Below, piece after piece: positions 1,050 through 44,891 of a DNA stretch of 64,000 bases; position 1 is the first letter of the stretch; each line of letters opens with the position of its first letter. This DNA comes from Eledone cirrhosa. Taxonomy: Eukaryota. The DNA lies in NCBI GenBank assembly GCA_964016885.1, contig OZ024743.1, positions 205,220,001-205,284,000 on the forward strand, read 5' to 3'. Under the pieces are notes generated by a model, which was given only the letters and a program-made list of their open reading frames with translations, was not told the DNA's origin and ran no database searches. The position numbers and the translations under genes were made by a program.

Positions 1050-1242
1050 AGCGAAGGAGTTGTGTTAAGGAACCAGATGGACCATAACGCATCAGAGTAC
1101 TCAATACTTAGAGTAGTAGAGTGGGTAATTTGAAAATGTATGACCCCGACGGCAGAGCTCAAGCCGTTTCGACGGCTATTTCTGGGTCCAGAAATAGCTG
1201 TCGAAACGGCTTGAGCTCTGCCGTCGGGGTCATACATTTTCA
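1050..1242. mobile_element. Fold-back element in (TA)n; palindrome 1131-1242 made of two HHR 3' halves, plus one-sided tail
   Basis: Near-perfect inverted repeat centred on CTGGGTCCAG. Each arm reads GAAA-cggc-loop-gccg-TC outward. Tail has GTACTCAA at 1097. Related copy at 53487-53588. Confidence 0.7.
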
Positions 1243-3425
1243 TATATATATATATATATCCGTATGCGGTTGACGACTGAGAGAATGGAGTACTCAATAC
1301 CTAAGTAGAGTTTTAATATTCAATATTATAGTAACAAGACTCACTTAGTATATGTATGGTATTTTTATGTAATTACAAAAATGTTACTTTAGTGCTAATA
1401 GAACTTTTTAAAATTTTTATCGCATCATAATAAGGCATTGGGAAGTCAGTTTTAATATATATATATATATTAGTAATAATAAAAAAGACCAAATCCAGAG
1501 AGGACTCGCTAAGAGTTGTATATGTATATATAGAGATAGATATGTCTGGAACTAGCTGTTAAAAGGGCAAGAGCTCAGCCGTCGAGCCCAGACTATAATA
1601 TATAAATTTCTACCTGTTCCAATAACCACATGGCATTGACAAACTGTCGCCACTTTTGACATCTGTTACAAACGGACACTTGACCATGTTTTATATTCCT
1701 AGCTTTGTTTATATACTGTAACAAGCTGTTATTTTATGTTTCAAGTAATATTTTTTAAAGTCTAGGTTTGTTTGTATATTACACACATTAATGTCCCAAA
1801 CATATGTTTACTATGTATATACATTACATGTGTACTGGATTTATTGTGAAAGCTTTTTTTAAAAATAGAATGTATACAAATAGACAATTTATATTTTTTG
1901 TAAAAATTATATTAGAAAAGAAGGGGTGGTGGAGAAGACACAAAACAAGGGGTGTTGTGGTTTTCCCCTAATAATTTTAAGGCAAGCCAGTGCAGCATTG
2001 ATACTGGTGATGGCGTGGCTAAGGCGTTGGAATAACCAAGCTCAATTGCATTTATTTATATATGTGCGGTTGTTATTTGCCATCGAATATAGTTTGATAA
2101 TGAACATGTTAGCAAGGTTTAGTTTAGTTGTAAGTACCGGCAAGTCGGATGATCACATGGTGTACCACGTGGTAAGCGGTGCCACGTCATGTGTTAAGGA
2201 ACTTTTAAATGCGAAATGGGGAAATGTAAATATAATATATGAAATGAAAAATTACATTAAACAATATGAAAATCCCTTTAGTTGAGAGTCAACTTTGTTT
2301 TATAATAGTGTGTGGGAATAGTAAGTTTGAAGTAAGGTCGCTTGGGTTGGGCTCATGAAAACATATTTAGTTTTCTGCAGGAATGTGAGAACTAAAAGAG
2401 AAAGTTTCAATTAAAAATTAAAAAAACTAGTAAAACTTTTATTTCCCATAATTATGCATACAAACAAACACAATTTATATTAACAAATATGGGGAGAAGA
2501 TACACACCACAGGGGAAGCTGGAGTTTCCCTGTAATACTTTTTGAGGCACCCCTAACACACTGCATCGCAGCCCCTGCTAGTGGGGTTAAGACGCTGGAA
2601 TAACCAAGTACCCTTGCAGACATCACCTAATTTGTTGGTAAGGCAAGCAACTATCAATAACAAGAACCTCATTGTCAGTGGCCCAGCTCCCTCCAAATGT
2701 ATCAAACATCACAGGCTGAAAATAAAATAGTTTCCTAATATTTTAGAATGATATTCTGTTTGGCTACTTTAGACATAGTTACCCTCACCTTCACCACAGC
2801 ATCCAGGGTATGGGAAAGAACAAAATAGCCACTAACATATTTTGTTTATTTACACCTCCATCATCATCATCATCATTATCATCATCATCAACACCAACAT
2901 CATCATCACCATCACCATCACCATCACCATCATCATCACCATCATTATCATTATCATCATTATCAGTATCATTATCATTTAACGCTTGTTTTCCTTGCTA
3001 GCAAGGGTTAGTTATGTCGTCACAGATGAAGTCAGTACTTAAGTGGAACTCCCTGACTGCCCATATTGACCAGGTATTTTTTATTATGGCACCAACTCTA
3101 AGGAGGTTATCATGTTTCTGACACAACTGAGGACTCCGCTTTATCGTTTGTTGGGCAAGTTTTCTATAGCTGGATGTAGTGCTGGATTTACCTATAAGCT
3201 AAATAAACTATAGTTTAGGGCCACACACCCTCAAGGCATCATTTAAAAAAAAATATATTTTTATTGTATCATTAGTTTTTATTCTGTAACCCTAAATCAT
3301 CAAAAATTATATTGAAACAACATATCTCTAGCAGTCAACTGATGACATGGAACTACTGTCTGTATTTGCTCATTTTCCTGTCTTTGCCTATAGTTTTTTT
3401 TCATATGTATATGCAAATTCTGGGA

Positions 3426-3685
3426 AGGTTTGGTAGAAGCAGTAGAGAGCTTCTACTACTTGGGTGACCAAATTAGAAACGGAGGTGGGTGATCTGACAA
3501 TACAGTAGCCAGAGTGAGAACGAGATGGAAGAAATTCAGAGGGATACAACCACTGCTAGCTACAAAAGGATTTTCCCTCAAAATAAAAGGCAGACTGTTT
3601 GATGCATGCATACAAACAGCAATGTTGCATGGTAGTGAGACCTGGGTGCTGTGTGCAGAAGACTTGCATAGATTGGAAAGAAATC
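3426..3685 (+). mobile_element. RTE-clade LINE internal fragment
   Basis: ORF 3514-3696 (WKKFR..PLL..KGFSLKIKGRLFDACIQTAMLHGSETW) matches the RT C-terminal region of the larger RTE copies in this window. Confidence 0.85.
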
Positions 3686-3689
3686 ACCT

Positions 3690-43140: not shown

Positions 43141-43832
43141 CACACATATATATATATATTATATATATATAATATATATATAAATATATATTATATATAT
43201 ATATATATATATATATTATATATATATATATTATATATATATATATATATATATATATATATATATATATATATATATATATATATATATAGTGGTGGAA
43301 CACTGGAAGGTAATATCCGTAGTAGTAGAGCACTATATATATATACACATATACATATATATAAAAAAATGGGGGTAATATTAAATATTATCCAATTATA
43401 AGTAAGTATAATACAGAGCCGAAATACTTTGTAAATAACAATGAAAGAGTTTTTGAGAACATTTAACTACTAATTAGTAATTAAATGTTCTTAAACACTC
43501 TTTGATATATATATCAAACCCATATATATATATATATATATCTAACCCATGCTAGCGTGGAAGATGGACGTTAAACGATGATGATGATGATATATCATCA
43601 TCATCATCATCATCGTTTAACGTCCGTGTTCCATGCTTGCATGGGTTTGGACGGGAGTTTTCCCACTTGAGGCAAGAGTGGTTGTCTTGCTCGCATAGGA
43701 CTGTCTGGCGGGTTTTCTACAGTTGGATGCCCTTCCTAACACCAACCACATTTACAGTGTGGGGCTGGGAGGTTTTTACCGTGTTGCCTACATATATATA
43801 TATAAAAACCACAAACCCTCCATCTCAATTCT

Positions 43833-43872
43833 ACTTTTGAAAAGCACAAGAACTGCGAAACCGGTAAAGGAA
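43833..43872 (+). ncRNA. HHR, U3-A8 variant
   Basis: actt TTGAAAA gca-caagaac-tgc GAAA ccgg TA aagg. Confidence 0.7.
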
Positions 43873-44891
43873 CCAAATAAATATATTTAAAAAAAAAAGA
43901 CTTCAATTGCATTTTCGATTTCATCTTTTTTCCTTATACTTTCACTTGTTTTTTTTTTCATTTTGTAAAAAACCTCACATTCTAATATATATATATATAT
44001 ATATATATATATATATATATATATGGTGGCTGCCAACTCGTTTTCGAGTACGGCCACTACTTTATATCCATGTAGGAGAACCCCTACCAATGCGCTGAAC
44101 AAGTGTGACTTTTTAGTCCAGCCAGCGACTTGAAAACTCTGGTACAAACACTACACTTGTGACAATTATTGACACATAGTGCTGGGCCCATGGTACCATG
44201 TGACGACAAGTGCAGAGAGATCTCCAGATACAAAGCAATGCCTGTGCCATGAAGCTTTTATAGTGAGCAAAGGCACTGCACAAAGCCAGTCCCACTCTCT
44301 TAACCAAGATGATATTTACCAAAAAGAAGAACAAGTCAACATCATTGGATACCATCAGGGTTGAAGGTGTTATATCAGAGTTTTCCTTCTCCTAGAATTC
44401 TGCCTTGACAAAGGCTAAGGGGTCATCTCTCCCATTGATTTTGGATGGCCATTGACTCTTAAGAGCTCCCTTGCACTTTGATAGGTTTTGTTTTTAGTCC
44501 TGCAGGATGTCCAAAGTCACCCTGCTCACCAAGAAACTGTGGTGGGGTTGCCAGTTTAGTCGCCAACGACCCGACCATGAGACAGGTTGTACTGGAATAC
44601 ATGTTACCATATATATATATATATATATATATATATATATATATATATATATATATATATATATATACATATATATATATATACATACATGCATACAAAC
44701 ATATATGTATATGCACACACTCACACACACACATACACACAAGCACACACAGACACAGACGCTCACACACACATAAACATACACACACACACACACACAT
44801 ACACAATGAAATGTCTCATTGTTTTATCATGTAGAACCCGTCTAACCCATGCTAGTACAGGAAATAGACATTAAATGATGATGATAATAAT

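What the first reader, a model, noticed from the sequence alone, without database searches (positions are those of the whole stretch)
1097..44051. Shared YYGAGTRC motif in the one-sided tail of unrelated families
Seen on +: 14007, 14243, 21064, 22506, 24227, 26543, 33131, 34490, 44044, and TTGAGTGT at 40366. Seen on -: 1097, 1290, 6284, 8365, 15416, 21338, 33608. The motif typically lies about 20-70 nt before the junction with (TA)n and, in HHR-bearing units, downstream of the HHR in the part absent from the opposite arm. A degenerate TCGAGCCC lies in the Naiad tail (17948, -). Inference: a conserved cis signal for RT binding, initiation or endonuclease recognition. I know of no description of it.
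Basis: partly seen in the sequence, partly recalled or inferred. Interest (0 to 1): 0.75.

Follow-up and report, generated by a model that had tools for sequence, protein, structure and literature searches.

The report
Twin hairpins mark Penelope copying starts
The motif is one half of a small bulged hairpin that a group of telomerase-related jumping genes carries twice, each copy lying about six letters beyond a place where inserted copies end, so it likely tells the element's own enzyme where to start copying.

Summary
The motif is real: 23 matches against 8.3 expected, and it peaks 51-60 nt before (TA)n in random genome stretches. It is the 3' half of a hairpin: RCTC, a variable stem-loop, a 2-nt bulge, then GAGY and RC. 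The inner stem covaries across families whose flanks are unrelated. The carriers are not unrelated elements. Every traced ORF is a Hydra-type Penelope-like element (PLE), and the window's 'Naiad' is one too. Five coding families carry two hairpins (H1, H2). In 218 of 233 TA-ended copies the end lies within 14 nt before H1 or H2 (modes 5-9 nt). All 43 classifiable inverted insertions pair one end of each kind. Hydra-type PLEs from other marine sources keep the twin hairpins with compensatory changes. A second PLE group has a tail but no hairpin. Likely role: a docking site on the RNA that sets the two reverse-transcription starts. This is untested, and an RNA-versus-DNA test was null. I found no description in six literature searches. 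This scan already reported the same thing on other pieces of this genome.

The parts
17912..20723 (+). Hydra-type PLE, family A: 5'-truncated body 17999-20723 ending at E1, with an inverted tail-only arm 17912-17999 ending at E2; both ends run into (TA)n
18001..19719 (+). ORF remnant (RT then C-terminal GIY-YIG; in-frame stop at 18661-18663). Full-length copies elsewhere encode 709 aa
20649..20699 (+). Type I hammerhead-like motif of family A with variant core CAGAAGA (paired by eye; not found by Rfam)
   Evidence: Rfam negative
17948..17994 (-).
1050..1241 (.). Inverted mini-insertion of family B: minus arm with tail (E2), plus arm ending at E1
1097..1122 (-). H1 hairpin, family B (ACTC, TACT:AGTA, TT bulge, GAGT)
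1290..1311 (-). H1-type hairpin (ACTC, TAC:GTA, TT, GAGT)
6233..6770 (.). Inverted HHR-bearing insertion; arms 6327-6524 and 6578-6775, tail on the minus arm
6284..6325 (-). H1-type hairpin (ACTC, 7-bp inner stem, TC, GAGT)
8365..8391 (-). H1-type hairpin (ACTC, CAGT:ACTG, TT, GAGT)
13860..14059 (.). Inverted HHR mini-insertion, family C2; tail on the plus arm
13994..14014 (+). H1 hairpin, family C2 (ACTC, TGC:GCA, TT, GAGT)
14921..15133 (.).
15416..15437 (-). H1-type hairpin (ACTC, TAC:GTA, TT, GAGT)
20748..21133 (.). Inverted HHR insertion, family C1 (E1 on the minus arm, E2 on the plus arm)
21050..21071 (+). H1 hairpin, family C1 (ACTC, CAA:TTG, TC, GAGT)
22360..22554 (.). Inverted HHR mini-insertion, family C2
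22493..22513 (+). H1 hairpin, family C2 (ACTC, TGC:GTA, TT, GAGT)
   Evidence: not the MFE fold
24197..24234 (+). H1-type hairpin (ATTC, CGT:ACG, TT, GAGT) downstream of an HHR core
   Evidence: not the MFE fold
33131..33138 (+). Family C2 site whose inner stem is partly deleted
33608..33661 (-). Decayed hairpin; a sister copy (L050) has a perfect 7-bp inner stem
40366..40373 (+). Decayed H1 in the tail of inverted HHR unit 40019-40430
14243..14250 (+). Decayed site; tail interrupted by another repeat, no nearby (TA)n
26543..26550 (+). Tail site of a small family with no clear inner stem
34490..34497 (+). Solo tail fragment between two TA runs, 5'-truncated inside H1
21338..21345 (-). Site present on both arms of a larger inverted repeat (partner at 21682); not one-sided
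44044..44051 (+). Does not fit: lies just after a TA run, in another repeat
26721..28607 (-). Second PLE group (about 1230-aa ORF in full copies), with HHR and tail but no hairpin: the negative control

Best explanation
YYGAGTRC is the bulge and 3' strand of a conserved bulged hairpin that Hydra-type Penelope-like elements carry twice, just downstream of the two places where inserted copies end, and the hairpin likely acts on the element RNA as the docking site that sets each reverse-transcription start. Shown: the order HHR, E1, H1, E2, H2, ORF; the one-sided tail is the stretch from E1 to E2 and contains H1; ends fall 5-9 nt before a hairpin; inverted insertions always join one E1 end and one E2 end. 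Inferred: the protein binds H1 and H2; the nicked (TA)n strand anneals to the few UA letters just 5' of the stem; copying starts internally about 6 nt before the stem; the two target strands are primed, one at each hairpin, probably by a two-subunit complex; the two cDNAs are then joined head to head, which gives the inverted unit with a tail on one side.
For: Structure: with a 2-nt bulge, 60 of 90 near-TA motif copies fold, against 14 of 107 far copies; bulges of 0, 1, 3 or 4 nt give 1, 2, 10 and 13 of 90. Covariation: in 14 clusters with an upstream ACTC, inner positions 1-3 pair in 12, 12 and 12 of 14, against 8.6, 8.3 and 5.9 shuffled; 0 of 20,000 shuffles reach this. Flanks of 9 families are unrelated (36 pairs; median z 0.02 downstream, 0.5 upstream). 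Twin hairpins 78-106 nt apart in families A, B, C1, D and E; the C1 read-through pattern has 422 matches against 0 control. Ends: 218 of 233 TA-ended copies of these five families end within 14 nt before H1 or H2, and 43 of 43 inverted pairs with both ends classified are E1+E2, where independent choice would give at most about half (37 of 37 in the random sample plus window). H2 is absent from the inserted end and from the target, so it must act on the template or an intermediate. An alternating TA run of 3 nt or more follows 8 of 11 modal ends (background 10.7%), and position -6 lies in the ambiguity interval of 10 of 11. Other sources: perfect hairpins in 3 of 6 published Hydra consensi (coral, two sea cucumber, read by eye) and in 11 of 19 Hydra-type loci from 7 MAG records, twin before the ORF in 6, with outer-stem changes ACTC:GAGT, GCTC:GAGC and GCAC:GTGC. 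Literature: in a Poseidon PLE, RT starts internally at two sites that bound the tail, both target strands are cut and extended, and a dimer is predicted (PMC11167929).
Against: No binding or RT assay exists for this clade. The unbiased G-U versus A-C test is null (9 against 8), so RNA-strand action is not shown by pairing. The hairpin is weak: it is the MFE fold in 7 of 15 sequences tried. Twelve of 26 clusters (11 singletons, one pair) had no upstream ACTC and were dropped from the covariation test. Of 64 inverted pairs, 21 had an unclassifiable end. Metagenome loci L150-L156 gave 0 hairpins by script, only a shortened form by eye. In one search the raw bulge-2 count (16) is only modestly above other bulge sizes (5-12). 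A second PLE group makes a tail and mostly E1+E2 pairs (6, with 1 E2+E2) without this hairpin, so the hairpin is not needed for the tail in general. In PMC11167929 the primed DNA was not homologous to the RT start site.
Confidence: 0.62

Rival explanations
1. The hairpins act at the DNA level: the GIY-YIG endonuclease recognises them in a single-stranded or extruded cDNA or donor intermediate and cuts about 6 nt away, resolving a longer tandem copy into E1 and E2 ends.
For: Craig et al. attribute the tail to EN-mediated resolution. The D. virilis tail was needed for EN recognition, as cited in PMC11167929. The G-U versus A-C test does not favour the RNA strand.
Against: In vitro RT starts of a Poseidon PLE match both tail boundaries on a free RNA template. 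The motif lies on the same strand as the ORF and HHR. UA letters after the ends fit primer annealing. A C(UUCG)G loop in family A H2 is typical of RNA (typicality recalled).
Confidence: 0.17
2. The hairpins are RNA-processing signals: the transcript is cut or terminated about 6 nt before either hairpin, and ordinary 3'-end priming then gives E1 or E2.
For: Fixed offset to a small protein-binding-type stem. PMC11167929 reports RNA-seq read ends at the PAc start sites.
Against: Two independent RNA pools would give E1+E1 and E2+E2 pairs, and none were seen among 43. In PAc, lengthening the RNA 3' end did not change the product.
Confidence: 0.12
3. The motif is a promoter or translation element near the ORF start, or a passive remnant of common descent, and has no role in setting ends.
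For: H2 lies 35-90 nt before the ATG. pLTR promoters are reported in PLEs. All carriers are one clade.
Against: Ends track each hairpin at 5-9 nt while H1-H2 spacing varies from 78 to 106 nt. Flanks are unalignable while the stem covaries.
Confidence: 0.06

Closest known systems
Hydra clade of EN+ Penelope-like elements (Craig et al. 2021, PMC8557442)
   Same: C-terminal GIY-YIG, RW[K/R], DKT, CxCX5C linker, (TA)n target, HHR in the pLTR, inverted 5'-truncated copy with a one-sided tail. The hairpin is visible in three of their six deposited consensi.
   Different: The passages, sections 11 and 15 and supplement parts read describe no conserved tail motif or hairpin. Tails here are 78-106 nt, against the 30-40 bp stated.
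PAc (Poseidon from Anolis carolinensis) internal two-site initiation (Frangieh et al. 2024, PMC11167929)
   Same: Two RT start sites bound the tail; both target strands are cut and extended; the protein needs RNA downstream of the starts; a dimer is predicted.
   Different: PAc starts lie inside an AC-rich stem-loop in the ORF, and no repeated or conserved recognition element is reported. Here two copies of one bulged hairpin lie in the 5' UTR, each 5-9 nt downstream of an end. Their .gbk file could not be read, so PAc was not checked for the hairpin.
Cis-acting RT recognition structures: R2 3' UTR, LINE/SINE 3' stem-loops, hepadnaviral epsilon, telomerase RNA elements (all recalled, not tested)
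   Same: A small structured RNA, here with a bulge, recruits a cognate RT and fixes where copying starts.
   Different: Those act once per template. Here the element is duplicated, lies downstream of internal starts, and each inverted insertion uses both.
Metazoan non-LTR retrozymes (PMC7229834; bioRxiv 10.64898/2026.07.22.740005)
   Same: Small HHR-bearing repeats derived from PLE pLTRs.
   Different: The window's units are inverted, one-tailed, heavily truncated insertions in (TA)n, mostly of coding families, not tandem monomers. The parts read mention no tail hairpin.

Membership tests
Hydra-clade PLE | Single ORF, RT followed by C-terminal GIY-YIG EN | tested here: met
   709-aa ORF with YRDDG at 346-350 and YIG near the C-terminus. 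Judged from motifs: Pfam gave no relevant hit.
Hydra-clade PLE | N-terminal RWK motif | tested here: met
   R-x-R-W-R in 6 of 6 family ORFs; the R-for-K variant is also in published Hydra-1_Crog.
Hydra-clade PLE | DKG modified to DKT | tested here: met
   SDKTGN in L015. DKT in 4 of the 6 copies picked; the other two copies have NKT and HKT.
Hydra-clade PLE | CxCX5C linker; CCHH absent; CxxC and CxH flanking E and N | tested here: met
   CNCRNRADC, PCDLC and CKH in family A; CxCX5C also in family C. The other ORFs picked do not reach this region.
Hydra-clade PLE | Insertion into (TA)n | tested here: met
Hydra-clade PLE | Canonical HHR in the pLTR | tested here: inconclusive
   Canonical cores in C1, E and C2; family A has CAGAAGA; none recognised in B by my pattern. 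Cleavage untested.
Hydra-clade PLE | Generally shorter than 3 kb | tested here: inconclusive
   Family A is about 3.2-3.3 kb by my sum of 5' UTR, 2130-nt ORF and 1004-nt 3' UTR.
Hydra-clade PLE | Placement in the Hydra clade of an RT tree | not tested
   The published reference proteins were not available as stored sequences.
Naiad PLE | N-terminal GIY-YIG EN | tested here: not met
   EN is C-terminal.
Naiad PLE | DKA motif and lack of HHR | tested here: not met
   DKT and an HHR-like motif are present. Naiad-type peptide motifs were not found in the window or random sample.
EN+ PLE tail (two RT start sites) | Extension present at one end only, bounded by two fixed end points | tested here: met
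   43 of 43 classified inverted pairs are E1+E2.
EN+ PLE tail (two RT start sites) | End points are RT initiation sites | not testable with these tools
   Shown only for PAc in vitro.
Non-LTR retrozyme | Non-coding tandem monomers bracketed by HHRs | tested here: not met
   Window units are inverted, and the tails of families A, B and C1 trace to coding elements. C2 is unresolved.

The most novel reading that the evidence does not exclude
Hydra-clade PLEs integrate by programmed twin priming: a two-subunit RT-endonuclease docks on two copies of one bulged hairpin in a single RNA, anneals each nicked (TA)n strand to a telomerase-like UA mini-template about 6 nt before its hairpin, and copies outwards from both, so every complete insertion has one end of each kind. 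Other PLE clades would do the same with their own twin signals, such as the TATCG that follows both ends in the second group.
Probability: 0.4. Interest if true: 0.82.

Novelty: new variant of a known kind. Interest (0 to 1): 0.7.

Why it matters
How Penelope-like elements, the closest retrotransposon relatives of telomerase, choose their start sites and why they carry a one-sided tail and head-to-head inversions is an open question in the papers read. This gives a defined 20-30 nt RNA element, a spacing rule and a strict pairing rule, each testable with point and compensatory mutants in an assay format that already exists for another PLE. It also gives a marker for finding Hydra-type ends and partners, which are very abundant here (42,485 forward-strand matches to a strict pattern). 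A portable signal that starts reverse transcription internally at (TA)n could be useful for RNA-templated insertion tools.

Tried and rejected
Rfam scan of the window: only sub-threshold microsatellite-driven hits, no hammerhead among the 150 listed of 151. Pfam: no relevant family for either PLE protein. G-U versus A-C asymmetry: a first count of 31 against 10 was biased by a filter that counted G-U as paired; the unbiased recount was 9 against 8, so it was dropped. Second hairpin for family C2: two genome patterns gave 2 and 23 hits that read as chance, nested or tandem-H1 matches. Homodimer prediction of residues 1-480: no verdict, score 0.00, alignment not used. Extension to Naiad and Chlamys: twelve 8-mers searched in the Craig supplement gave one perfect hairpin in the 3' UTR of Naiad_Mmer, about 500 nt from its end; the other hits were read by eye as coding or unpaired, and line breaks can hide matches, so this is left as a lead. 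The matches at 8955 and 41362 lie antisense in LINE-like coding sequence, and 11245, 51798 and 51817 have no TA junction; all were rejected as chance. A Pol III B-box reading was considered from recall and rejected because the motif pairs in a stem and the consensus does not fit.
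Full report
Observation. The window comes from a 3.0-Gb genome with very large chromosomes; that it is an octopus-like animal is my inference, not a tool result. All listed motif coordinates are present. The window has 23 YYGAGTRC matches against 8.26 +/- 3.11 expected. In 59 random 10-kb stretches taken elsewhere, 36 of 88 matches start 31-100 nt before a (TA)n junction on the same strand, 18 of them at 51-60 nt, while three permuted controls have at most 2 per bin. 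A strict genome-wide pattern has 42,485 forward matches against 461 for its reversed control.

The motif is half of a hairpin. Clustering showed ACTC a short, variable distance upstream of most near-TA motifs. The fold is RCTC, an inner stem-loop, a 2-nt bulge, GAGY, then RC. Across the window and 119 random stretches, 60 of 90 near-TA copies form it with a 2-nt bulge, against 14 of 107 far copies; bulges of 0, 1, 3 and 4 nt give 1, 2, 10 and 13 of 90 (copies are not independent). At family level, 127 near-TA hits fell into 26 clusters. Twelve had no upstream ACTC and were dropped. In the other 14, with the anchor chosen by sequence alone, inner positions 1-3 paired in 12, 12 and 12 clusters against shuffled means of 8.6, 8.3 and 5.9, and 0 of 20,000 shuffles matched this. 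The pairs differ between families (T-A or C-G at position 1; A-T, G-C or G-T at position 2). The 40 nt on either side are unrelated among the 9 fully paired families. The hairpin is weak alone: it is the MFE fold in 7 of 15 sequences. A test for RNA-strand action by G-U against A-C was null (9 against 8).

Who carries it. The element at 17912-20723 has RT followed by a C-terminal GIY-YIG, RLRWR, SDKTGN, CNCRNRADC, CDLC and CKH. These are the Hydra-clade features in Craig et al., not Naiad features. Its TCGAGCCC pairs with GCTC, a compensatory form of ACTC:GAGT. Six coding families (A, B, C, C1, D, E) were traced. All have RxRWR and are 39-55% identical in protein. The tails of the window's 1097 and 21064 units belong to B and C1. 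No coding partner was found for C2 (14007, 22506, 33131). So the families descend from one clade, but only the hairpin has been kept in the tail.

Two hairpins, two ends. In tandem copies the order is HHR, E1, H1, E2, H2, ATG. Families A, B, C1, D and E have H1 and H2 78-106 nt apart. For C1 the read-through to H2 has 422 genome matches against 0 control. Family C showed only one long-loop hairpin. Of 233 TA-ended copies of the five families, 218 end within 14 nt before H1 or H2, with modes at -5 to -9. After 8 of 11 modal ends the element continues with 3 or more alternating T/A letters (background 10.7%), and position -6 fits 10 of 11 ends. Of 64 head-to-head pairs, 43 had both ends classified, and all 43 were E1+E2; 21 had an unclassifiable end. 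The two ends of one insertion are therefore coupled. The lead that ends lie about six letters before either stem came from earlier scan note e1-8671399. I had noted the hairpin before that look-up, and the counts above are my own.

Other organisms. In the six Hydra consensi of Craig et al. (supplement parts 52-53, read by eye), coral Hydra-2_Amil and sea cucumber Hydra-2_Ajap have a perfect GCTC:GAGC hairpin after the HHR, and Hydra-1_Ajap has two at its 5' end. Hydra-1_Amil and Hydra-1_Crog are partial, and Hydra-1_Obim has no tail. Nineteen Hydra-type loci came from 7 MAG records, which I read as host DNA. Eleven show at least one hairpin (9 by script, L324 and L326 by eye), 6 have two before the ORF, and L324 and L328 have a GCAC:GTGC double change. 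In L326 and L328 the E2 end lies 8 and 7 nt before H2 (by eye). The other 8 loci have no tail or 5' UTR in view. Seven metagenome loci gave none by script; the four that reach the 3' end have only a shortened form. The conserved core is thus R-C-W-C, a stem, a U-led 2-nt bulge, G-W-G-Y, then RC; YYGAGTRC is the local H1 version.

Negative control. The second PLE in the window (26721-28607; about 1230 aa in full copies, with a CX4CxxC linker of Neptune or Nematis type by the definitions) also targets (TA)n and has an HHR and a tail, but no such hairpin. Both of its ends are followed by TATCG. Its inverted pairs are 6 E1+E2, 1 E2+E2 and 3 unclassified. The tail is general to PLEs; this hairpin is clade-specific.

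Mechanism. H2 is in neither the inserted end nor the target, so it must act on the template or an intermediate. In the one PLE studied in vitro, RT starts internally at two sites that bound the tail, needs RNA downstream of them, extends both target strands and is predicted to be a dimer. I infer that the Hydra protein docks on each hairpin, that the nicked (TA)n strand anneals to the UA letters before the stem, and that the two strands are primed at H1 and H2, which gives the E1+E2 inverted product. DNA-level EN recognition and RNA processing remain open rivals. Arkhipova et al. 2013 proposed self-priming on an antisense template for the inversions, which my data do not exclude for the joining step.

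Literature and novelty. Six searches found no description of a conserved tail hairpin; the library lacks most subscription papers. What I saw: Craig 2021 (passages, sections 11 and 15, supplement parts 1, 2, 23, 52 and 53, two term searches); Frangieh 2024 (parts 1-2 of 4 and the text of supplement 1; the .gbk file could not be read and may bear on PAc); the 2026 retrozyme preprint (parts 1-2 of 5; supplements closed); Arkhipova 2013, Cervera 2014 and Cervera 2020 (passages only). Comparisons with R2, LINE stem-loops, epsilon and telomerase RNA are recalled. Four earlier notes of this scan on other pieces of the same genome reach the same reading; they are not independent support.

Noticed in passing
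window 26721-28607 (-); L309, L310: Second PLE group: the tail overlaps the ORF start, and both E1 and E2 are followed by TATCG, a possible twin signal of another kind.
   Followed up: partly
window 21169-21860: Inverted arms of about 215 nt, each with a motif-bearing tail, enclose a scrap that translates like an ISXO2/Merlin-type transposase end (label recalled).
   Followed up: partly
window 20649-20699: Family A hammerhead has CAGAAGA in place of CTGANGA, the same in the copies shown; activity unknown.
   Followed up: no
families B and C2 in L031-L149 and the window: 5' fold-back points of tailed copies cluster 56-77 nt before H1; in C2 this is at the hammerhead.
   Followed up: partly
window 34470-34557; L326: Some copies are 5'-truncated inside or at H1, as if copying from E2 stalled at the first hairpin.
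   Followed up: partly
window 44025-44110; L064; L068: A repeat that begins right after (TA)n with a short unbulged ACTCG:CGAGT hairpin; family unidentified.
   Followed up: no
Naiad_Mmer consensus, PMC8557442 supplement: A perfect GCTC:GAGT hairpin with TT bulge in the 3' UTR of a Naiad, about 500 nt from its end; may be chance.
   Followed up: partly
L321-L339: Animal-type PLEs sit in bacterial MAG records of marine symbionts, likely host contamination.
   Followed up: no
window 45035-46063: 45-bp tandem array, about 23 copies at 97% identity.
   Followed up: no
window 53833-58916: Near-intact two-ORF non-LTR retrotransposon (531 aa and 1049 aa frames).
   Followed up: no
window 9534-9830, 21918-22233, 23618-23940, 38643-38940: tRNA-related SINE-like repeat inserted in (TA)n (weak tRNA hits).
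   Followed up: no
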